NCBI GenBank assembly: GCA_000004985.1
Contig: GG738877.1
Length of the DNA stretch: 64,000 nucleotides
Direction: 5' to 3' (one strand)
Source of the DNA: Naegleria gruberi
Taxonomy: Eukaryota
Under the pieces are notes generated by a model. It had not been told where the DNA came from and searched no databases. It was given only the letters and a program-made list of their open reading frames with translations. The position numbers and the translations under genes are program-made. The first letter of the stretch is position 1. Every line of letters begins with the position of its first letter. Shown here one piece after another: positions 3,092 through 57,317 of the stretch.

Positions 3092-5255
3092 TTATGCAAT
3101 CTCCTCAACAATGGTGTTCTTGCGTGTTGCAGTATAAGCTTTTGAATCTGAAAATTTGTGAAAATGATGTTTTGACATGAAAATAATGAGAGCTTTTACA
3201 AACTTCGTATTGCTCACACTATCATTCATATCGCTCAACAACTTATTCTTCAAATCCGTAATAAGTTCTGATGTTGGCATATATTCTATTATTGGATAAA
3301 TATATTAAATATTAAATAATTAAATACAGCTACATACCTTTCCATTCAATTTTCTCAGTCTTGTTTTTAAATATTTTAAAACTAGTTGAACTATAATCAT
3401 CATATCCATTAAAAGATGTAACTTCAAGTATTACATTCAATATTTCATTACTTGTTGTTTTAAAATTGCATTCTGAATAAATTTTCATTTCATCTAAAAC
3501 TGGACTTGATATGGAAACTGAAAAACCCTTCCTATCATCATTTAATTGTTTCTTTTTCAAATGTTTTTCTGCTTTAGATTTAATATTGTAATCACTATTT
3601 TCAAATTTTACTAATTTTCCAGAATATTTCAAACAGAAATTTCTTAAATCAATTAAACTTTTCAAATGTTGACTACTATTGAAATGATATGATTGTAATG
3701 AAATTTCATTCACAAGCTTTTCCATATATGTAATTCCATCCAATTCATAACATGTATGACAATTTCTACGGATGGTATCATTAGAATTACTATCATTAGA
3801 ATTGCTATCGGAATTACTATTATTAGAATTATTTTTGGATAATAAATTAAAATTTAAATCGTGTAATTGTAAAAATTGTAAAATATCAACTATTGCATAT
3901 TCCTTTTCAGAAAAATTGGTAATGTGAATTTTGAACGAGCATGAACAAATCATTAAAAATTTAACAAAATCTTCCAAATTCCAATTTAGAGGAATATCCA
4001 ACAATGAAAATACATCATTCAATGCCTCCTTATCATGAATTACTTTATCTTGTTCATATGTGTCAGTTAATAACAAAGTTTCCATTCTTTTTTCTTTTCT
4101 AGCTGCCAAATAATAATAAACATGGCATGTATCATCTCCACTACATATTGTCTTGACATGATGTTGAAAGAATTCCATAAATCCATTTCCATCTTTTCTT
4201 TTTATAGATAATTTACAAACACTTCCTTGTGAATGATCCAATTTAACAGATGCCCAACTTGTAAATTTAACATTTCCATCCTTAAATAATTGTTTATAAT
4301 TGTTCAATATTTTTAAATTTTCATCATTGGATGATAAATAATCATTCATATCAATTGAATGAGTGGAATCATTTGACACTAATTGATTGTTTAATATATG
4401 TGCATTTAAATGGAGTATACATCCATTAATAAATTGCATAGTAGATGCAATTGTAGATTTTTTATCTAAATAACTGTTAATTATGTTTTTAAATAAAAGA
4501 TATATTTGAAATTGATATTTACGATACTGTAAATGACTATTATATCCAATGTAGAGTTCATTGGTAAAAGCTGCATGAACAAGTCTAAATGGTAATTGAT
4601 CACTATTTGGTAAATACATGAAAATATTGTGTAATACAATAGTATTCAACCAATTTGTAAAATGATAATTAGGATGTCGAATAATAATTAGTGAAGGAGT
4701 TACATTAGTATTGATAGATTGTGTTACATGTTTAGAATTATTCAATTTTCTCTTTTTCCTACGATGACGAATTTTCCTTTTCAAATCTTCATCATCAGAA
4801 CTTTCCTCTTCATCGGAATCCTCATCTTCCTCATCATCAGAATTATTACATTTACGAGCTTTCTTTTTATCCTCATTTTCCTCTTCCTCGTCTTCTTCCT
4901 CATCCTCTTCATCCTCATCTTCCTCTTCCTCGTCTTCTTCCTCCACTTCTTCCTCCTCTTCCTCATCACAATCACAATACAATTCTTTTCCAAATAATAA
5001 TGTATTTCTAATTTTTTGAACATCACCACGATCATAGTCATAGCTTTCGGAATCATAGCCATAGTTTTCGGAATCATAGTTTTCGAAATCCGAATAATCA
5101 TCTACACTATTTTCTTGCTCTTCCAATTCCTTTTCCAATAAATTTTGTAATTTGCTTTCTTCCCTTAATGGTGCACCATCTGTTTTGAAATGATCATACC
5201 AGCAAGAATCGCCAAATCGACAACAACCTGCTAACCAATACCAACAAACAACCAT
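3092..5255 (-). CDS. CCCH (C3H1) zinc-finger protein with a long poly-Glu/Asp tract. Proposed two exons: 3338..5255 and 3092..3285, intron 3286..3337.
   Basis: N-terminal CWYWLAGCCRFGDSCWYDH is a C-x7-C-x5-C-x3-H finger. The acidic tract is encoded by a GAA/GAG/GAT microsatellite (4780-4980). The track ORF 3330..5255 ends ...EWKGM*, where GTATGT directly overlaps the last codons. Splicing GTATGT...AATAG (52 nt) joins it in frame to track ORF 3092..3280, adding EYMPTSELITDL...EEIA. Confidence 0.5.
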
Positions 5256-6120: not shown

Positions 6121-6416
6121 TTTTTTGTTGGGATTTTGATTTGATATTTAAATGTGGCGTAACTTTCTAGTATGATTCCAAGAACATGTTCTTCTCATCC
6201 ATTTCGAGTCTAATAACGGAACAATTTGTGAAATTTACAACTACTCGGAGTTGACTACAATCTTAAATTCAATGTTCAGCAGATGATCTTTATTTTCTTT
6301 TTTCATTCACTTCTTACAGGGTTAATGGTGTTGATTCTGAAGCTAAAAAGTTGATTAATGATTTCAAATTTTTTGTAATTTAAACAAGCGTCCACCTCAA
6401 AAGCAATATTATAAAA

Positions 6417-6533
6417 GACTACAGCACCACAGGTTCCCAAGTTGTCTCCAACCTCAGTACTGATGTGGCTCGACGATGCTTAACTTCTCAAATCGGACGG
6501 GATGGGTTCATTCATCGTGATATGGCCGTAGCC
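6417..6533 (-). rRNA. 5S rRNA gene, copy 1 (117 nt), dispersed.
   Basis: Reverse complement reads GGCUACGGCCAUAUCACGAUGAAUGAACCCAUCCCGUCCGAUUUGAGAAGUUAAGCAUCGUCGAGCCACAUCAGUACUGAGGUUGGAGACAACUUGGGAACCUGUGGUGCUGUAGUC followed by TTTT. Helix I ends pair (GGCUACGG / CUGUAGUC). The conserved CCCGUCCGAU and GGUGCUGUAG boxes are present. Confidence 0.8.
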
Positions 6534-6598
6534 ATTGATATCCTTAATTTACGATATTTAATCTATTAAGATGAGCTTTCTCGAACATAGAACGAACT

Positions 6599-7126
6599 AT
6601 GAACCAAGAAACGTTCATCACAAAATCAAAAAAAATGGGTCAAAAGCAAAGTATCTCTAAATGGACGATTGATGAACATACTTTGAGCATTGATGATGTT
6701 TGCAAAAAGTTCGATACTCAATTTAATAACTATAATCCGGATGAATCATTAGGCTTGAAGAGTCAAGTGGTTAATAAACGATCGGCACAGTTAAGTAGAA
6801 AGAGGAGAACAGTCATTGTATTTAGGGATGGTATTAAGAAAAATATTGATAGTGAAGAGTTGGTGGTGGGTGATATTGTGATGGTCAATAGTGGAGATAT
6901 TGTTCCAGCAGATTTGAGAATTTTGAGTATTAATGGTTTGAAGGTGGATAATTGCATAATAAGCGGAGAGAAGACGATATTGAATTGTACTGTTGATAAG
7001 ACACACGAAAATCCTTTCGAGACGTCCAATATTCTTTTCAAGGAGACAACCATTGTAGCTGGAAGTGGGTATGCAGTGGTCATTAAAATTGGTAGTGATA
7101 CATTAATTGAATCTTTGGCTCCATAA
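6599..7126 (+). pseudogene. 5' fragment (about 175 codons) of a P2-type cation ATPase (Na/K- or H/K-ATPase alpha-like). It covers the N-terminal and early actuator-domain region and is truncated before the TGES motif.
   Basis: EHTLSIDDVCKKFDT...NPDESLGLKSQVVNKRSAQ...VFRDG...VVGDIVMVNSGDIVPADLRIL...VDNCIISGE...GSGYAVVIKIGSDTLIESLAP is the typical N-terminus of P2 ATPases. It ends in TAA, with no coding continuation or usable splice donor downstream (7127-7613). Confidence 0.5.
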
Positions 7127-7249: not shown

Positions 7250-7613
7250 CATTCCAATAATATTTTAGTGGGTTTACATTCTCTTACATCTAACCTAAGA
7301 TCATAGTATCCGCCTTAAGGCACTCCTTTCAGGGACAAAGCTTTGAAGAACTACAGTTTGAAGGATGATTAAGGGATGATTAAGCATAGTGTAAATCACA
7401 ATTAAAAGCTGGAGTATCAGATTTAATTTCCTTTTCAATCAACTTGAACCTTTTTCTTCACCTCTTTGATGTTTTCCACCACCTTCATGATGGAACAATT
7501 CAAACGTTTTTCCTTGCTTATCAATGATAAATTGGCGCCACTTTCCAAAGCCTTAAATTTTTAAAATTTTAAAAAAAACTCTCAAATTGAAACTCTAACT
7601 TTCTTCTTCAGTA

Positions 7614-13813: not shown

Positions 13814-16123
13814 ATGACAAAATTTGATTCTAATCCATACAATAGAAGAATATATCCATCTATCACCAAGCAGTCATCAAACAACAAAAAAAAGAACAAC
13901 ATGTATGCTGATTTGACTTTCCAATTCCTTGCTGAAGAGGAAGACAATTCCGTTTATTATTCATCCTATTATGCTTTTCAATCATTTGGATCTGATGAAT
14001 TGCTTTCTCTCTTGAAAAACAAATTTGTAAATCAAGCTAGAAATTTGATCAAATTCTTGAATAACAGAAAACAATTTCTCGAGTATGGAAAACGTTTGAA
14101 AAACAATGGGATCATTCCTACGGGTGTTCCTATAGAATTGATTTGTGATTGTACGGTACATTTGAATGTTTTTGAAACATTTAATAGAGTTTCGTTTGAG
14201 GAGATTATGGCTTGGGTTCCTGGTGAAATATTTTGCATTACAAATAAGCAAGTTATAAAAGAAGCATTGCATTATCGTGGAATCCTTGTAATGGCAAGTG
14301 ATGAATTGAAATCAGACCCAGAATTGGTTCTTAAAGCTATTGAAACAGATGGAAATTTAAAGAAGGGAAGCTTTAAATTTGCTTCCAAGAGTTTGAGGAG
14401 TAATCAACAATTTCTACTGGATGCCATTGAAATAGATGCTGATATTTTAAAGTATGCTGATTCTGCATTGAGAAATGATCCAGATTTTATGAGAAAGGTT
14501 GCTAGAAGACACCTCTATTGCTTTAGATTTATTGGTGAAGAGTTGGAAAGAAATGAGGAATTTATAACCTCTGTAATGATTGAAAACTCACTAGCTATTG
14601 GTTGTTTGGGAGAATTGTCGAGATCATTGTTCAATGATTTGGATCGTGCTGGAGAAGAAATTGTACAATTATTTGAAACATTAGTGGATATGAGTAGGTC
14701 TGACCTCATTGAACATGTTAAGGGAATTTGTCACGATAGGGATTCAATGAAGCAGCTGTTGAGGTGTGATGGTTCACTTTTGGAGTTTTGTACTGAAGAA
14801 CTTCAAAATGACAGGACACTTGTAATAATAGCTGTAAAGAATAGGGGATCCTCTCTCCGATTTGCTGCCCCAAATTTTAAAATGGATCGAGAAATAGTTA
14901 ATCTTGCATGTAAAGATTCAGCAGAAAACTTCAAATATGCCTCAGATTCTCTCAGAAGTAATTTTGATTTTATAATAGAAAATCTGAAAAACGGTATCGA
15001 CCTTGTTCCATATCATACAGCTGATATTGATGAAATGTTGAAATTAATTGGATTTTATTGCTTTGATGATTTTATTCAATTCTCTTGTGAATATTTTCCT
15101 GATTTAGGTTCAGATCTTGATCTGATAGAAAAGATTGTGGAGAGATGTTGGGAAGTGAGACAAGAATTTAGTGACTGGCCGATATTGGAGCATGTTTCCG
15201 AGGAGGTGATTCCTGCTCTTCAAAAAGACATTTTGTTAAAAGTAGTTCAAATGGATGACTCGAACTTTGACAGAATACCTACTGAACTCAAGAATGACAC
15301 AGAAATTCTAGCAGCACATATTACAAACCAGGTCAACCAAGCTCCATATTTTGAAGACTTTGAAAGCCTACCACAATTTCTTGATTCTGAATTCATCAAA
15401 CTATTAATCAATTATAACATTGACTATCGTATTATTGAGCATATGCCTGAAGTTGTAAAAGTAACACCCATTACATCTGAATTTGTGAAGAAATGGCCAC
15501 AAGCTTTTACTCTATGCCCAGAATTTTATTCAGACGATGTACAATTCATTACAGATAGTAACGTTATGGCTATTGCATTTGCTCGTGAACCAGTGCAACT
15601 GGAACACTTGGATTTAGTCGCTCAGGCCATTCAGAAAGATCCTAACGTGTTGACAAAATTACCTGATGATGTCCAAATAGGATTACTCAAACAACACAAA
15701 CCAGACCTATTGAAAGCACTAGCCCAAAATTGTGACGATTATGCGAGGCTATGTGAGGAGGTACAAGCAGATCGTGATGTGATTTTAATGTGTGCTGGTT
15801 CTCCTTTTGGAGGTCATTTGGCTGATCTTATTCCAGAACAAGTCTTGTTGGACAGAGATTTCTTAGTCAACCTTGTCAGGAGAAATGGCTTTACTTACCA
15901 AATGATTCGAGAAATGACTATGGAAGAGGATGAAGATGAAGAATTAGCTATGGAAGCTTTGAAATCTTGGGGCTGGTTTGAATCTTCATTACTATATCAA
16001 TATCATGATGCTAAAATAATTTACAAGATTTTCAAGGAATTATTGAATCAACGTTTGAAGGCTTTTTACAGTGAAGATTTCTTTATTCCCTCAAGATATT
16101 CTTCACTTGCTTTTAAGGTTTAA
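13814..16123 (+). CDS. DUF4116-repeat protein.
   Basis: Multiple about 36-aa repeats of the form L(R/Q)NDxxF/LxxxAVKxxxxxLxYAxxxL, e.g. LQNDRTLVIIAVKNRGSSLRFAAPNFKMDREIVNLACKDSAENFKYASDSLRSN. Confidence 0.6.
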   Translation: MTKFDSNPYNRRIYPSITKQSSNNKKKNNMYADLTFQFLAEEEDNSVYYSSYYAFQSFGSDELLSLLKNKFVNQARNLIKFLNNRKQFLEYGKRLKNNGIIPTGVPIELICDCTVHLNVFETFNRVSFEEIMAWVPGEIFCITNKQVIKEALHYRGILVMASDELKSDPELVLKAIETDGNLKKGSFKFASKSLRSNQQFLLDAIEIDADILKYADSALRNDPDFMRKVARRHLYCFRFIGEELERNEEFITSVMIENSLAIGCLGELSRSLFNDLDRAGEEIVQLFETLVDMSRSDLIEHVKGICHDRDSMKQLLRCDGSLLEFCTEELQNDRTLVIIAVKNRGSSLRFAAPNFKMDREIVNLACKDSAENFKYASDSLRSNFDFIIENLKNGIDLVPYHTADIDEMLKLIGFYCFDDFIQFSCEYFPDLGSDLDLIEKIVERCWEVRQEFSDWPILEHVSEEVIPALQKDILLKVVQMDDSNFDRIPTELKNDTEILAAHITNQVNQAPYFEDFESLPQFLDSEFIKLLINYNIDYRIIEHMPEVVKVTPITSEFVKKWPQAFTLCPEFYSDDVQFITDSNVMAIAFAREPVQLEHLDLVAQAIQKDPNVLTKLPDDVQIGLLKQHKPDLLKALAQNCDDYARLCEEVQADRDVILMCAGSPFGGHLADLIPEQVLLDRDFLVNLVRRNGFTYQMIREMTMEEDEDEELAMEALKSWGWFESSLLYQYHDAKIIYKIFKELLNQRLKAFYSEDFFIPSRYSSLAFKV

Positions 16124-16226: not shown

Positions 16227-18239
16227 ATGTCGCTATTCCTCACGCACTGTTTCCCTCATGCTAGCTCATGCACCGATCACTATGAATCCGATTCGGAATA
16301 TGAATGTCGTGACGATCTATTCGATTTAAACAGATTCACACAACCAATTCACGTCGGATTGGATTTAACAATCGAAGGTTCAAGAAAATTAGGACACTAC
16401 CTATTGATCATCATGTGGAGGTTAATATTAAAAAGTCCCATGTTATTCCGAGTGAGAGATGAAGCGAAAGAACAAGTCAAATTGTTGGAGAAATTTTGTT
16501 GCCAGAGACACGAAGAGTTTAGGGAGGTTTGTTCGAATCATCATTTGTTTGAAGATTCGAGTGTGGAAGTGTTTGATGATATGCAGGTGTGGGCTTCCAT
16601 GAGAGAAAGTGAAGAAAATGAGACACGGGAATACGAAGGAGAAAAGAGAATTAAATTAGATGCTGAATCTCTGTCAAAAGTTTATACACTTTCGAATTAT
16701 TTTGCTACTATTGTTAAAAAATACATATTTGGAGAGTTGGCGAAACATGGCACTGTAGAGATTTACAAATTTATCACAAAGCAAAATAAGATTGCACTTA
16801 CATTTAAAATTGAGGAGCTCAGAGATATGGTATTGAAATATTTCGAATATACTCCTTCAATGCTTCCATTGGAAGATCAGGATGTTAAATTATATTTTAT
16901 TGGAATGACAGCCTTACTGGAATATTTGGCAGCTGACATGATTGAATTGGGTGGAAATGCCGCTAGAGATGCCCGTCAGGAATATATTACACCTTCTTGT
17001 TTTGAAATAGCCACTTCAGGAGATGCAGAATTGGAAAGGACTGTACTATTTCACATGAACCATTTGCCTCTCGTTGATTTCAATTATTTTTATGGAGCCA
17101 ATCAAACAGTATTACCTCCTATTGATGTGAATGAGAAAGCCAATAGTGGAGAGGAATTTAATTTTACTCAACTACCAACTGAATTACATCATACCATACT
17201 CAAAAATGTTTCTTCGTTGGAAGAACTTTTGGAAATGAGATTGGTTTGCAAACAATGGAACTATTTCATCATGAATGATAATGATATTTGGAAGAGTTTA
17301 ATTTGTAACAATATGATTTCAGAAGATTTATTCAGGTTCTGTGATTCAACTTTTACTGTTGATGAGTTGGAAACTATTTTGAGTAGAGGAAAAGATCTAA
17401 AACCTCTCCATTTTGGCCAACAAGTAATTAATCATTTCTATGAGAAGAATGATTGGAAGTCCCTATACTTTATTCTCGTACGAAGACATTTGACATTTAT
17501 ACGTGATTTGGATTTGATGAAATCAAGAGAATTTTTCGATGTATTTCAATTAGATTCTTCTGTAGAATCATATGATAACTCGAAAAAGAAACTGCAAATT
17601 GGAATTACAAAGGGTTTATTTGCATATTTCAACTTTACAAAACACCTATCATCACGTGTTTCGTCTAAGGTTTACATTCCTAAAGATGCTCTTTCAGAAT
17701 TTTTGAAATTTGGAAATAATTATTCACTAGTTGGTGTGATTGACTTTTCAAAATTCTCCTCCTTCATTTCATGTCGTTTGTTCCCAAAAAATGGATTATT
17801 ATATTGCTTTTATCACAAAATCAATCAAGCAGATTTTCTATTCTTTGAGAATTATTCTCTTGAATCTGAACAATTAATTGAATTTGAAATCAAAGACAAA
17901 ACCTTTAAATTTCCTCAACCAATTAATCCATACCAAGTCTACCATGAACAAATTGTTGTCAATCAACCTTCATGTTGTCCATTCTTTTACTTGCAGCAAG
18001 CACAAGGTCATCGTTCAGGTTGCAATCTAGCCCCAAGCGTTCTATTTAACAATAATGAAGACAGACCTGAAACAATGATTCAATCCTACCTCAGAGAGGA
18101 TGACGATGATAATATAGTACTGCTATCAGACACCTTGGAGGAATCAGAAGATACTTTTTCTATTTACATTTCAAGAGAGGATTTAATCTTAAGAAAGTTT
18201 GAGAATGCAAAAATTGAATATGTGAAACCAAACTACTAG
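16227..18239 (+). CDS. F-box protein.
   Basis: LPTELHHTILKNVSSLEELLEMRLVCKQWNYFI is an F-box consensus (LPxEIxxxILxxL...LxxxxxVCKxW). Confidence 0.55.
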   Translation: MSLFLTHCFPHASSCTDHYESDSEYECRDDLFDLNRFTQPIHVGLDLTIEGSRKLGHYLLIIMWRLILKSPMLFRVRDEAKEQVKLLEKFCCQRHEEFREVCSNHHLFEDSSVEVFDDMQVWASMRESEENETREYEGEKRIKLDAESLSKVYTLSNYFATIVKKYIFGELAKHGTVEIYKFITKQNKIALTFKIEELRDMVLKYFEYTPSMLPLEDQDVKLYFIGMTALLEYLAADMIELGGNAARDARQEYITPSCFEIATSGDAELERTVLFHMNHLPLVDFNYFYGANQTVLPPIDVNEKANSGEEFNFTQLPTELHHTILKNVSSLEELLEMRLVCKQWNYFIMNDNDIWKSLICNNMISEDLFRFCDSTFTVDELETILSRGKDLKPLHFGQQVINHFYEKNDWKSLYFILVRRHLTFIRDLDLMKSREFFDVFQLDSSVESYDNSKKKLQIGITKGLFAYFNFTKHLSSRVSSKVYIPKDALSEFLKFGNNYSLVGVIDFSKFSSFISCRLFPKNGLLYCFYHKINQADFLFFENYSLESEQLIEFEIKDKTFKFPQPINPYQVYHEQIVVNQPSCCPFFYLQQAQGHRSGCNLAPSVLFNNNEDRPETMIQSYLREDDDDNIVLLSDTLEESEDTFSIYISREDLILRKFENAKIEYVKPNY

Positions 18240-18277
18240 CACGAGCCATCAGCCAAAATTGTTTAATAAATTAAAAA

Positions 18278-18395
18278 GACTACAGCACCACAGGTTCCCA
18301 AGTTGTCTCCAACCTCAGTACTGATGTGGCTCGACGATGCTTAACTTCTCAAATCGGACGGGATGAGGTGAATTCATCGTGATATGGCCGTAGCC
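18278..18395 (-). rRNA. 5S rRNA gene, copy 2 (118 nt).
   Basis: About 96% identical to copy 1, with substitutions clustered in helix III (CGAUGAAUUCACCUCAUCCCG vs CGAUGAAUGAACCCAUCCCG). Same orientation, same TTTT(T) terminator, and a similar AT-rich upstream box (CCTTAAT...GATATTTAA). Confidence 0.8.
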
Positions 18396-18569: not shown

Positions 18570-19991
18570 ATGCTAACAAACAACCAAGAACTTGTTTCAA
18601 TCATTCTTGATTCGAATTTTAAAAGCGATTCGTTGAAATCAATCTTTGGAAATTATTTAATTAATCAACAAGAATTAAAATATTTACACATTCTCGCCTT
18701 TGTCTATTCCAACAATTACAAGAATACTAATTACAACCATAGCAGCAGTCGAGTCAGAACTTTAGAAAATCGAGAATTGATCAAACTTTGTTTGCATAAA
18801 TGTGGAACTTTTATCAAATTATTGGAAGATAAATTCCGAAATGATAGAGAATTGGCATTGATTGCTGTTAAGAGTAACTCGAATGCCTACACGTTTATTT
18901 CGAGAGATTTGCAGGATGATGAAGAAATTTGCATGGAAACCTTGTTGAATGCTAATTTTGGAACTGGGTTCAATACACTGGAATTGATTTTTACAAAATT
19001 TCCAGGATTTGGTTTGCATGAAGATGTTTTATTGCATAATTTGCAGTTCAGTGCTGATTTGTTGAGATTTGCTGATCGGTCATTGGTTGGAAACAAGGAA
19101 TTTATGATGAAAGCTGTCAAGGTTAATGCAAATTCTATTCAATATGCTTCTCCACAAATACGAAATGATGAAGAAGTGGTGATGGAAGCTGTTTTATTAC
19201 AACCTCATGTAATATTTGGTATCCATTCAACTAATCCAGATTTTATTTTGAAATATATTGAGAAAAGTCAAATACCAACAATACTGAAATTTGTTGATTG
19301 GGACATACGAAATAATCGAAATATTGTTTGGGAAATTATTAAGAAAAATCCATCAGAGTTTAAATATGCAAGTTATGAACTCAAAGGAAACGACAGAGAA
19401 ATCGTTGAATATGTAGTTCAAATAGATGGCCAACTCCTGTTGGAATATGTAGAAGAACCACTCATTCAAGATAGAGACATAGTTCAGCTAGCTATTCGAA
19501 ACAACCCAATGGCTATCAGATTTGCAAACTATTTTCAAAATGATAGAGAAATTGTCGAATTGGCCCTTTCCATGAATAAAGATGCAATTCAATTTGCATC
19601 GAAGAGATTGAGAGAAGAAATTGAATATCAATCTCAATTAGACAATGATTTATATGGAAATGAAACAGTTTCCAAATCAGATAATCATGAGGTTGATAAT
19701 GATCTTTATGGAAATGAATCAGTTTCGAATATTTTAAATGATGAAATAATTCCACAAGATTTTAATCTAATTTACTATCGAGAGAAAATGTTAGAATCCA
19801 TCAAATGGAATGAATCTTATTTGAAGAGTGTTGAGAATTCCCTTGATTTGAATCGATCTTTCATAAGAGATTGTATTCGAAACAATAAGAATTGTCTATT
19901 ATTCATTAGAAATCACTTTTTAATGGATAAAGAATTTATCCTCTTTGCATGTTCCAACTATTCCATTCAAGATTTTTCATGTGAGTTCTAA
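18570..19991 (+). CDS. DUF4116-repeat protein, paralogue of 13814..16123.
   Basis: Repeats such as FRNDRELALIAVKSNSNAYTFISRDLQDDEEICMETLL, IRNDEEVVMEAVLLQPH and FQNDREIVELALSMNKDAIQFASKRLRE. Confidence 0.6.
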   Translation: MLTNNQELVSIILDSNFKSDSLKSIFGNYLINQQELKYLHILAFVYSNNYKNTNYNHSSSRVRTLENRELIKLCLHKCGTFIKLLEDKFRNDRELALIAVKSNSNAYTFISRDLQDDEEICMETLLNANFGTGFNTLELIFTKFPGFGLHEDVLLHNLQFSADLLRFADRSLVGNKEFMMKAVKVNANSIQYASPQIRNDEEVVMEAVLLQPHVIFGIHSTNPDFILKYIEKSQIPTILKFVDWDIRNNRNIVWEIIKKNPSEFKYASYELKGNDREIVEYVVQIDGQLLLEYVEEPLIQDRDIVQLAIRNNPMAIRFANYFQNDREIVELALSMNKDAIQFASKRLREEIEYQSQLDNDLYGNETVSKSDNHEVDNDLYGNESVSNILNDEIIPQDFNLIYYREKMLESIKWNESYLKSVENSLDLNRSFIRDCIRNNKNCLLFIRNHFLMDKEFILFACSNYSIQDFSCEF

Positions 19992-33316: not shown

Positions 33317-33389
33317 GCTGGCGTAGCTCAGTCGGTAGAGCGTTGGTCTAATAAGCCATTGGTCGCCCGTTCGATCCCGTCCGTCAGCA
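33317..33389 (+). tRNA. tRNA-Ile (anticodon AAU), possibly defective.
   Basis: 73 nt with acceptor GCUGGCG/CGUCAGC (one G-U) and D-arm GCUC-AGUCGGUA-GAGC. Anticodon loop CUAAUAA, T-loop UUCGAUC. The T-stem GCCCG/CCGUC pairs only 3 of 5, and the anticodon stem has a U-U. Confidence 0.55.
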
Positions 33390-46863: not shown

Positions 46864-46934
46864 TGCGTCGACCGGGAATTGAACCCGGGTCACGGCGATG
46901 GCAACGCCGTATTCTACCACTAAACCATCGACGC
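46864..46934 (-). tRNA. tRNA-Gly (anticodon GCC).
   Basis: Reverse complement reads GCGUCGAUGGUUUAGUGGUAGAAUACGGCGUUGCCAUCGCCGUGACCCGGGUUCAAUUCCCGGUCGACGCA. Acceptor, anticodon (CGGCG/CGCCG) and T (CCGGG/CCCGG) stems are all perfect. Confidence 0.85.
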
Positions 46935-57243: not shown

Positions 57244-57317
57244 TGCCTCCCTTGGGAATCGAACCCAAGACCTCTGTCTTACTAGGACAGCGCTACTGCC
57301 AACTGAGCTAGGAAGGC
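57244..57317 (-). tRNA. tRNA-Thr (anticodon AGU).
   Basis: Reverse complement reads GCCUUCCUAGCUCAGUUGGCAGUAGCGCUGUCCUAGUAAGACAGAGGUCUUGGGUUCGAUUCCCAAGGGAGGCA. Good acceptor, anticodon (CUGUC/GACAG) and T (UUGGG/CCCAA) stems. Confidence 0.8.

What the first reader, a model, noticed from the sequence alone, without database searches (positions are those of the whole stretch)
6417..7126. Dispersed 5S rRNA gene abutting a truncated P-type ATPase gene fragment
A complete 5S gene (minus strand, with TTTT terminator) lies 65 bp from the 5' end of a 175-codon ORF. That ORF is clearly the N-terminus of a P2-type cation pump, but it stops before the TGES/actuator motif with no downstream exons. This looks like a gene relic, created by a rearrangement or by segmental duplication together with the 5S unit. 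It hints that 5S copies mark duplication or insertion breakpoints in this genome.
Basis: seen in the sequence. Interest (0 to 1): 0.5.

Follow-up and report, generated by a model that had tools for sequence, protein, structure and literature searches.

The report
Stand-alone pump actuator domain beside 5S
Next to an ordinary dispersed 5S rRNA gene of the amoeba Naegleria gruberi sits a small gene that kept only the cytoplasmic "actuator" domain of a sodium-pump-type ATPase; it looks like a selectively maintained protein, not a dead gene fragment, and its closeness to the 5S gene seems incidental.

Summary
The window is Naegleria gruberi nuclear DNA. The 5S gene (6416-6533, minus strand, T-run terminator) is real and lies 65 bp from the 175-codon ORF (6599-7126). 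That ORF is the annotated NAEGRDRAFT_69190.

The ORF does not stop before the TGES motif. It covers the pump's N-terminal segment and the whole actuator (A) domain barrel, with the motif reading SGEK (Gly-Glu kept). The roughly 95 residues of the M1-M2 membrane hairpin are cleanly missing. No other ATPase piece occurs in the 64 kb.

The only full-length N. gruberi relative found is just 45% identical, so this is not a recent duplicate.

A second allele on a metagenome contig carries the same 5S-ORF junction. It differs by 7-8 synonymous and 3 non-synonymous changes and one in-frame indel (dN/dS about 0.1). Its 3' flank diverges about 7%, with further indels, most of them not multiples of three. 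AlphaFold gives a confident, complete A-domain fold.

The best reading is a domesticated, soluble A-domain protein rather than a neutral relic. Its function is unknown and is only inferred here.

Dispersed 5S genes in this genome (279) are already published. The second 5S copy in the window lies between two long open ORFs with no pump homology. I found no support for 5S genes marking breakpoints.

The parts
6416..6533 (-). 5S rRNA gene, copy A (118 nt). It is full-length but its helix III is weakened compared with copy B.
   Evidence: Rfam RF00001 scores 90.7 bits over model positions 1-120. Relative to copy B it has two substitutions and a 1-nt deletion. The MFE fold loses the CUCA/UGAG stem.
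6413..6416 (-). Pol III-type T-run (TTTT) at the 3' end of the 5S gene. A second TTTT lies at 6399-6402.
   Evidence: Read directly from the sequence.
6534..6598 (.). A 65-bp divergent spacer between the 5S gene and the ORF. It contains the AT-rich TATA-like upstream element shared with 5S copy B (TTAAATATC...ATTAAGG..AT.AAT on the minus strand).
   Evidence: Alignment of the two 5S copies with their flanks. The element is consistent with the TATA box reported for N. gruberi 5S genes (PMC3369914). There are 0 differences in 88 nt (spacer plus the first 23 nt of the 5S gene) against the second allele L001, compared with 7% divergence in the 3' flank.
6599..7126 (+). A 175-codon ORF, annotated as NAEGRDRAFT_69190 / XP_002675507.1 (the annotated model starts at Met13, position 6635). 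It encodes a stand-alone P-type-ATPase actuator domain.
   Evidence: 100% identity to P0001. Pfam PF00122 scores 7e-20. dN/dS is about 0.1 against allele P0275/L001. The AF2 model has pLDDT 86.9 and pTM 0.82.
6626..6790 (+). N-terminal pump segment (aa 10-64). It carries the 7-residue insert typical of heterolobosean pumps (T.FN..NP.ES.GL).
   Evidence: tblastn with P0004 residues 77-131 gives 44% identity, E 1e-7. blastp against the N. gruberi pump P0162 gives 41% for residues 11-59.
6791..6817 (+). Short basic linker (around ...QLSRKRRTV...) standing where the roughly 92-95 residues of the M1-M2 hairpin lie in full-length pumps.
   Evidence: This is the gap between the two homology blocks. 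The ORF has no hydrophobic segment. It is the only stretch inside residues 20-175 with lower pLDDT, about 75.
6818..7120 (+). A-domain beta-barrel (aa 74-174). It aligns without gaps to the M2-M3 cytoplasmic loop of IIC pumps.
   Evidence: Solved Na,K-ATPase chains, residues 158-259, E 4e-23. Identity is 44-50% to Naegleria and Willaertia pumps. Foldseek top hit is 9kcg_A with TMq 0.76 and rmsd 2.4 A.
6962..6973 (+). The TGES-motif position, which reads S-G-E-K. Gly and the catalytic Glu are kept, and Thr is replaced by Ser.
   Evidence: Alignment. G123 and E124 are invariant across all 59 aligned sequences. The N. gruberi pump itself reads TGET.
18277..18395 (-). 5S rRNA gene, copy B, used for comparison. 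It lies between two long open ORFs (16227-18239 and 18570-19991).
   Evidence: Rfam scores 103.3 bits. The flanking ORFs are listed.

Best explanation
Two unrelated features sit back to back.

(1) The 5S gene. It is one of the many dispersed, individually promoted Pol III 5S rRNA genes of Naegleria gruberi, and a slightly aberrant copy.

(2) The ORF. It is a small protein-coding gene descended from a Naegleria-lineage Na/K-type (P2C) pump gene. That gene lost, in frame, the M1-M2 membrane hairpin and everything from M3 onward. What remains is exactly the two polypeptide pieces that fold together into the pump's cytoplasmic actuator (A) domain, joined by a short basic linker.

Shown:
- The domain content and its boundaries.
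- The native (heterolobosean) origin.
- The long divergence from the one full-length N. gruberi pump found.
- An intact frame in two alleles, with substitutions concentrated at synonymous third positions.
- A confident prediction of a complete A-domain fold.

Inferred:
- The ORF is translated into a soluble protein. If translation starts at Met13 (MGQKQS...), it may be N-myristoylated.
- The protein has been kept by selection after it stopped being a pump.
- My preferred mechanism, at low confidence, is that it docks on the P/N domains of the full-length pump, or on partners of the pump's N-terminus. It would then act as a trans modulator or decoy, using the retained Gly-Glu of the (T/S)GE loop.
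- The closeness to the 5S gene reflects the compact genome and a shared AT-rich 65-bp divergent promoter region. It is not a rearrangement scar.
For: Organism and gene identity:
- The ORF is 100% identical to an annotated N. gruberi protein.

Anatomy:
- The N-terminal segment plus the complete A domain are present. M1-M2 is excised and the ORF ends at the A/M3 boundary.
- There is no TM segment.
- No other pump pieces occur in the 64 kb.

Native origin, but old:
- The ORF shares the 7-aa heterolobosean insert and the Naegleria-clade GSGY signature.
- In the NJ tree it is a long-branch sister to the Naegleria/Willaertia pumps.
- It is 44% identical to the N. gruberi pump, where working pumps of the clade are 53-74% identical to each other.
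- It keeps 22 of 31 columns that are invariant in 17 full-length pumps, and most of the replacements are conservative.

Selection:
- The second allele P0275/L001 comes from a metagenome.
- Coding changes are 7-8 synonymous and 3 non-synonymous. NG86 gives dN 0.007 and dS 0.080. The binomial p is 2e-4 to 4e-3.
- Nine of 11 changes are at third codon positions (p = 1.4e-3). Only this frame is open in both alleles.
- The coding indel is 6 nt and in frame. The 3' flank has 11 changes in 154 nt plus indels of 9, 3, 1 and 1 nt. Fisher p is 0.0025.
- In a neutral-decay simulation, 29% amino-acid divergence leaves the frame open in only about 4% of runs, substitutions only.

Fold:
- The AF2 model has pLDDT 86.9 and pTM 0.82.
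- It superposes on the A domain of the human sodium pump, N-terminal segment included, with TMq 0.76 and rmsd 2.4 A over 239 columns.

Precedent for soluble A-domain proteins:
- An unnamed family of roughly 60 clusters from environmental, transcript-sized contigs has the same TM-less architecture, arranged as two tandem modules.

5S context:
- A published survey lists 279 dispersed putative 5S genes with a TATA box (PMC3369914).
- Copy B lies between two long open ORFs.
Against: - The selection test rests on one extra allele and only 10-11 substitutions.
- No annotated orthologue exists in N. fowleri, N. lovaniensis or Willaertia, although their full-length pumps are in the same databases. The gene is therefore young or lineage-restricted, or its orthologues are unannotated.
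- The long branch and the loss of 9 of 31 pump-invariant residues, including Thr of TGE and the EPQ that follows it, show relaxed pump-type constraint.
- I could check no expression or protein evidence.
- The AF2 model was driven by an alignment of full-length pumps, so the packing of the N-segment is partly inherited from them.
- The proposed trans-acting mechanism and the myristoylation are untested inferences.
- Pfam does not recognise the N-terminal segment.
Confidence: 0.62

Rival explanations
1. Neutral gene relic. The ORF would be a dead remnant of a pump paralogue, left by deletions or rearrangement, whose frame happens still to be open.
For: - About 85% of a pump is missing, and no completing exons occur in the 64 kb.
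- The TGES motif is degenerate and 9 of 31 pump-invariant residues have changed. The branch is very long.
- No annotated orthologue exists in other Naegleria species.
- Under the lower bound of divergence, an open frame still survives in about 16% of neutral simulations.
Against: - dN/dS is about 0.1, with 9 of 11 differences at third positions. The only coding indel is in frame, while the adjacent 3' flank diverges about three times faster and carries additional indels, most not multiples of three.
- Across about 55% amino-acid divergence there is not one gap in the 101-residue barrel.
- Both deletions coincide with the structural boundaries of one domain.
Confidence: 0.15
2. Recent segmental duplication or rearrangement that carried the 5S unit and the 5' end of a pump gene together, with 5S genes acting as breakpoint hot-spots.
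For: - The ORF keeps the pump's native N-terminus (FI.KSKK...), so the 5' end of the parent gene was included.
- The 5S gene is only 65 bp away, and the junction is identical in a second strain.
Against: - The only full-length N. gruberi relative found is 44-45% identical, no closer than pumps of other genera. That is not recent.
- The two 5S copies share no flanking sequence beyond about 35 nt of promoter.
- Copy B lies between two long open ORFs with no pump homology.
- With 279 5S genes in a gene-dense 41-Mb genome, closeness to a gene is expected (PMC3369914; the genome size is from my own knowledge of the 2010 genome paper).
- I could not retrieve the P0162 locus to look for a neighbouring 5S gene.
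Confidence: 0.08
3. The ORF is a real, selected gene, but the A-domain fold has been re-used for something unrelated to P-type pumps, such as a generic binding module. The motif remnants would then have no meaning.
For: - Selection and fold evidence are the same as for the best explanation.
- Pump-specific surface residues around the TGES loop (T, EPQ, R) have been replaced.
- In the marine TM-less family the first module has lost the motif entirely.
Against: - Gly-Glu of the loop is kept, as are the N-segment EH.LS..VC motif and the PADLR strand.
- Nothing I ran separates this reading from the trans-regulator idea.
Confidence: 0.15

Closest known systems
Type IIC (Na,K-/H,K-ATPase-like) P-type ATPase alpha subunits, in particular the N. 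gruberi pump NAEGRDRAFT_30663 (P0162) and its N. fowleri, N. lovaniensis and Willaertia relatives
   Same: The N-terminal segment and the A-domain barrel are homologous, at 41% and 44-50% identity. The ORF shares the heterolobosean 7-aa insert and the GSGY signature. Gly-Glu of the TGE loop is kept. The predicted fold superposes on the A domain of solved sodium pumps.
   Different: The ORF has no M1-M10, no P domain (no DKTGT) and no N domain, so it cannot be a pump. Thr of TGE is replaced by Ser and the EPQ after the motif is lost. It is 175 aa long, against about 1040-1240 aa for the pumps.
An unnamed family of TM-less A-domain proteins from environmental eukaryotic contigs. Two-module members include P0003, P0007 and P0130; single-module members include P0091, P0043 and P0140.
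   Same: The architecture is the same: Cation_ATPase_N-like segment, short linker, A-domain barrel, ending at the A/M3 boundary, with no membrane segments. Pfam finds PF00690 and PF00122 only.
   Different: The origin is independent. These proteins lack the heterolobosean insert and cluster apart from the ORF in the NJ tree. Most have two tandem modules. Their source organisms are unknown. Identity to the ORF is only 27-42%.
Dispersed 5S rRNA genes of N. gruberi (279 putative copies, TATA box plus internal control region; PMC3369914)
   Same: Copy A is a full-length Rfam match with an upstream TATA-like element and a T-run terminator. It is not linked to the rDNA.
   Different: Copy A carries a 1-nt deletion and two substitutions that weaken helix III. 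Whether it is a working copy is unknown.
Exon-skipped or truncated transcripts of animal Na,K-ATPase alpha genes (for example P0112 in the representative library)
   Same: The same join of N-terminal segment to A domain, with M1-M2 missing. This shows the architecture can arise by skipping the exons that encode the hairpin.
   Different: Those are transcript variants of a full-length gene. Here the shortened form is the gene itself, fixed in the genome and carrying its own stop codon.

Membership tests
5S rRNA (Rfam RF00001) | Full-length match to the covariance model above the gathering score | tested here: met
   90.7 bits against 38, model positions 1-120, at 6416-6533 on the minus strand.
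5S rRNA (Rfam RF00001) | All five helices intact | tested here: inconclusive
   Helices I, II, IV and V fold as in copy B. The helix III stem CUCA/UGAG is lost through a 1-nt deletion. Rfam marks two more non-standard pairs than in copy B.
5S rRNA (Rfam RF00001) | Pol III transcription signals (upstream TATA-like element in Naegleria, T-run terminator) | tested here: met
   The upstream motif is shared with copy B and a TTTT lies at the 3' end. A TATA box is reported in PMC3369914. Transcription itself was not testable.
P-type ATPase, type IIC pump | Phosphorylation (P) domain with DKTGT, and a nucleotide-binding domain | tested here: not met
   The ORF ends at the A/M3 boundary. tblastn with 34 full-length pumps finds no P or N domain sequence anywhere in the 64 kb.
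P-type ATPase, type IIC pump | Transmembrane helices M1-M10 | tested here: not met
   A hydropathy scan finds no hydrophobic segment. The M1-M2 region is absent from the alignment.
P-type ATPase, type IIC pump | A domain with the TGE(S) dephosphorylation loop | tested here: inconclusive
   The barrel is present and aligns without gaps. The loop reads SGEK, so Gly-Glu are kept and Thr is replaced by Ser.
Pseudogene / gene relic | Frame disruptions, or substitution pattern without codon-position bias (dN/dS near 1) | tested here: not met
   The frame is open in both alleles. Changes are 7-8 synonymous and 3 non-synonymous, and 9 of 11 fall at third positions. dN/dS is about 0.09-0.14.
Pseudogene / gene relic | Loss of parts essential for the parental function | tested here: met
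   M1-M2 and everything from M3 to the C-terminus are missing.
TM-less A-domain proteins of environmental eukaryotes (unnamed) | Architecture: N-segment, linker and A barrel only | tested here: met
   Alignment. The representative search aligns ORF residues 9-174 contiguously to residues 203-368 of P0003.
TM-less A-domain proteins of environmental eukaryotes (unnamed) | Common descent with that family | tested here: not met
   The ORF carries the heterolobosean insert that they lack. In the NJ tree it groups with the Naegleria pumps, away from them.

The most novel reading that the evidence does not exclude
The Naegleria ORF and the environmental TM-less family would be independent inventions of a new class of small proteins: free actuator domains of P-type ATPases. 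Such proteins would act in trans on full-length pumps, for instance by competing with or supplementing the built-in A domain at the phosphorylated P domain. That would add a diffusible (or, in Naegleria, possibly myristoyl-anchored) regulator to a pump family thought to be regulated only in cis or by small membrane subunits.
Probability: 0.15. Interest if true: 0.7.

Novelty: new variant of a known kind. Interest (0 to 1): 0.42.

Why it matters
The 5S part is ordinary and already published.

The ORF matters for two reasons. It is a clean natural example of one cytoplasmic domain of a P-type pump being excised from its membrane scaffold and kept as a gene. A much larger unnamed family with the same design also exists in environmental eukaryotes. 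If these proteins act on pumps in trans, they would represent an unrecognised layer of P-type ATPase regulation. They would also offer a naturally soluble A domain for biochemistry.

For genome annotation there is a practical lesson. A truncated domain fragment that looks like a relic can be under purifying selection, and one extra allele can settle the question.

Tried and rejected
- **N. gruberi loci not retrievable.** The look-up of encoding contigs had no record for the neighbouring serA-like ORF, for P0001, or for the full-length pump P0162. I therefore could not examine the pump's intron positions or look for a 5S gene beside it.
- **Word-indexed search.** Run with the ORF, it returned only the ORF itself. 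The exhaustive representative search was needed to find relatives.
- **JGI metagenome scan.** The scan for more alleles found only distant bacterial-type P-ATPases at 28-32% identity.
- **Literature.** Searches for the gene and protein accessions, and for the metagenome accession, found nothing. A search for stand-alone actuator domains found nothing relevant.
- **Neutral-decay simulation.** It gave only moderate discrimination, with P(open frame) about 0.04-0.16. It was superseded by the allele comparison.
- **Small inversion.** I looked for inverted repeats that could explain the reversed tail of contig L001. None were convincing.
- **Horizontal transfer.** I considered transfer from animals or from the marine family and rejected it, because the ORF carries the heterolobosean insert and the Naegleria-clade signature.
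- **Continuation past the stop codon.** I considered that the ORF continues by splicing past its stop. Homology ends at the stop, the stop is conserved in L001 with a 9-nt indel right after it, and the annotated model ends there.

Full report
**Organism and observation**

The ORF at 6599-7126 is 100% identical to a 163-aa 'predicted protein' of Naegleria gruberi: XP_002675507.1, NAEGRDRAFT_69190, on a 394,700-bp scaffold. The window has about 33% G+C throughout.

Rfam finds two full-length 5S rRNA genes on the minus strand. Copy A lies at 6416-6533 (90.7 bits) and copy B at 18277-18395 (103.3 bits). It also finds three tRNAs. Copy A ends in a TTTT run, and its 5' end is 65 bp from the ATG of the 175-codon ORF.

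**What the ORF contains**

Pfam recognises only E1-E2_ATPase, with residues 69-173 matching profile positions 4-97 of 181 (7e-20). Against solved structures, residues 71-172 align without gaps to residues 158-259 of Na,K-ATPase alpha (4e-23). Residues 23-41 weakly match the pump's N-terminal EH.LS..VC segment.

Heterolobosean pumps make the N-terminal match solid:
- P0004 residues 77-131 match at 44% identity (E 1e-7), and residues 224-324 also at 44%.
- The N. gruberi pump P0162 matches at residues 11-59 (41%) and 155-256 (45%).

Three conclusions follow.
- The ORF starts at the pump's true N-terminus.
- It lacks the roughly 92-95 residues that form M1-M2; about nine mostly basic residues stand there instead.
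- It runs through the whole A-domain barrel and stops at the A/M3 boundary.

It reads SGEK. Gly123 and Glu124 are invariant across all 59 aligned sequences, and the N. gruberi pump itself reads TGET. The ORF has no hydrophobic segment. tblastn with 34 full-length pumps finds nothing else in the 64 kb.

In P2 pumps the A domain is built from exactly these two pieces: the N-terminal segment and the M2-M3 loop. This is established structural knowledge of SERCA and Na,K-ATPase. The ORF therefore encodes one complete domain, not an arbitrary fragment.

**Origin**

The ORF carries two lineage markers:
- the 7-residue insert after the EH.LS..VC helix (T.FN..NP.ES.GL), found in heterolobosean and some amoebozoan pumps but not in animal pumps;
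- the GSGY signature of the Naegleria/Willaertia clade.

A neighbour-joining tree places it as a very long branch beside that clade. It is 44% identical to the N. gruberi pump in the barrel, whereas working pumps of the clade are 53-74% identical to one another. Of 31 columns invariant in 17 full-length pumps, 22 are kept, and most replacements are conservative.

So the ORF is native but old. It is not a recent copy of the only full-length paralogue found, P0162, which lies on a different scaffold.

**Relic or gene?**

The 90% cluster of the annotated protein holds one more member, P0275 (177 aa). It is encoded on an 838-bp contig of an ENA metagenome assembly, L001 (ERZ929261). That contig starts inside the 5S gene, so the 5S-ORF junction exists in a second strain.

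| Region | Differences between the two alleles |
|---|---|
| 5S part + 65-nt spacer | 0 in 88 nt |
| Coding region | 10-11 substitutions in 525 nt, one in-frame 6-nt indel |
| 3' flank | 11 substitutions in 154 nt, plus indels of 9, 3, 1 and 1 nt |

Coding against flank gives Fisher p = 0.0025.

Of the coding changes, 7-8 are synonymous and 3 are not. NG86 gives dN 0.007 and dS 0.080. The binomial p is 2e-4 to 4e-3 under several mutation models. Nine of the 11 changes are at third codon positions (p = 1.4e-3), and no other frame is open. This is the pattern of a translated ORF under purifying selection.

A simulation of neutral decay adds weaker support. At the divergence implied by the changed invariant residues (29%), the frame stays open in about 4% of runs, before counting indels.

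Three caveats apply. There is only one extra allele. No annotated orthologue exists in N. fowleri, N. lovaniensis or Willaertia, although their pumps are in the databases. I had no expression data.

**Fold**

AlphaFold2, given an alignment of the ORF with 58 pumps, returns a single compact domain with mean pLDDT 86.9 and pTM 0.82. Only residues 1-18 are disordered, and the linker scores about 75.

Foldseek's best PDB match is the human sodium pump 9kcg_A, with TMq 0.76 and rmsd 2.4 A over 239 alignment columns. The N-terminal segment and the barrel therefore sit as they do in the pump's A domain. The alignment of full-length pumps biases the model towards this arrangement.

**Precedent elsewhere**

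The exhaustive search also surfaced proteins with the same TM-less design from short environmental contigs. Single-module forms include P0091, P0043 and P0140. A coherent two-module family includes P0003, P0007 and P0130. With a profile of that family, about 60 clusters of 350-400 aa were found. All are unnamed, all carry only PF00690 and PF00122, and all lie on contigs of about 1.2-1.3 kb that look like whole transcripts.

These proteins lack the heterolobosean insert and cluster apart from the ORF. The design therefore arose independently at least twice. One hit (P0112) looks like an exon-skipped vertebrate transcript with the same join, which suggests one route to the architecture.

**The 5S side**

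A published survey lists 279 putative 5S genes in N. gruberi. They are unlinked to the rDNA, have a TATA box and an internal control region, and are spread over many scaffolds (PMC3369914).

The two copies in the window share the gene and about 35 nt of upstream AT-rich motif, and nothing beyond that. Copy B lies between open ORFs of 670 and 473 codons that have no pump homology. Copy A has a 1-nt deletion and two substitutions that abolish the CUCA/UGAG stem of helix III, so it may be a minor or defective copy.

Nothing links 5S genes to duplication breakpoints here. The perfectly conserved 65-bp spacer suggests a shared, constrained divergent promoter region. That is an inference.

**Verdict**

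However, 'relic', 'recent duplication with the 5S unit' and '5S as breakpoint marker' are not supported.

The best explanation is a domesticated, probably soluble actuator-domain protein beside an ordinary dispersed 5S gene. Its function is unknown. A trans-acting role on the full-length pump is my preferred guess, and it is untested.

Noticed in passing
Proteins P0003, P0007, P0130, P0155, P0103, P0276-P0329 (environmental contigs, not in the window): This is a sizeable unnamed family of roughly 350-400-aa proteins. Each is made of two tandem 'pump N-segment + A domain' modules with no membrane segments. The second module keeps a TGES-like loop and the first has lost it. All come from contigs of about 1.2-1.3 kb in JGI, Logan, ENA and MERC data. 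The source organisms are unknown.
   Followed up: partly
window 6635-6652 (Met13 onward: MGQKQS): The annotated model starts at Met13 with MGQKQS, which resembles an N-myristoylation motif (Gly2, Ser6). It is identical in both alleles. The 36 nt between the first ATG and Met13 hold the only coding indel. This hints that Met13 may be the real start and that the protein may be lipid-anchored. I did not test this.
   Followed up: no
L001:790-838 versus window 7456-7520: After the position equivalent to window 7281, the metagenome contig continues with sequence matching the reverse complement of window ~7456-7520 (24 nt at 96%, with indels of 9 and 3 nt further along). The cause is either a ~240-bp inversion between strains just downstream of the ORF or an assembly chimera. 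I found no flanking inverted repeats.
   Followed up: partly
window 6534-6598: The 65-bp spacer between the 5S gene and the ORF, together with the first 23 nt of the 5S gene, shows no difference between the two alleles (0 of 88). The 3' flank of the ORF differs at 7% of positions. The spacer is probably a constrained divergent Pol III / Pol II promoter region.
   Followed up: partly
window 6505-6512 (5S copy A, helix III): Copy A reads UGAACC-C where copy B reads UUCACCUC. The 1-nt deletion removes the helix III stem in the predicted fold, so copy A may be a variant or a defective 5S gene.
   Followed up: partly
window 3330-5255 (-): This is a 641-codon ORF with an N-terminal CCCH-like motif (CWYWLAGCCRFGDSCWYDH), long acidic E/D runs and N/S-rich tracts. 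I did not examine it.
   Followed up: no
window 13814-16123 (+) and 18570-19991 (+): These two ORFs flank the region around 5S copy B. They share a repeated motif of the kind '...L.FAS..L+.D+E.V..AV..N...' and are possibly paralogues of a repeat-protein family. I did not examine them.
   Followed up: no
window 33317-33389 (+), 46864-46934 (-), 57244-57317 (-): Three dispersed tRNA genes reach the Rfam gathering score. Like the 5S genes, they are scattered singly among protein-coding genes.
   Followed up: no
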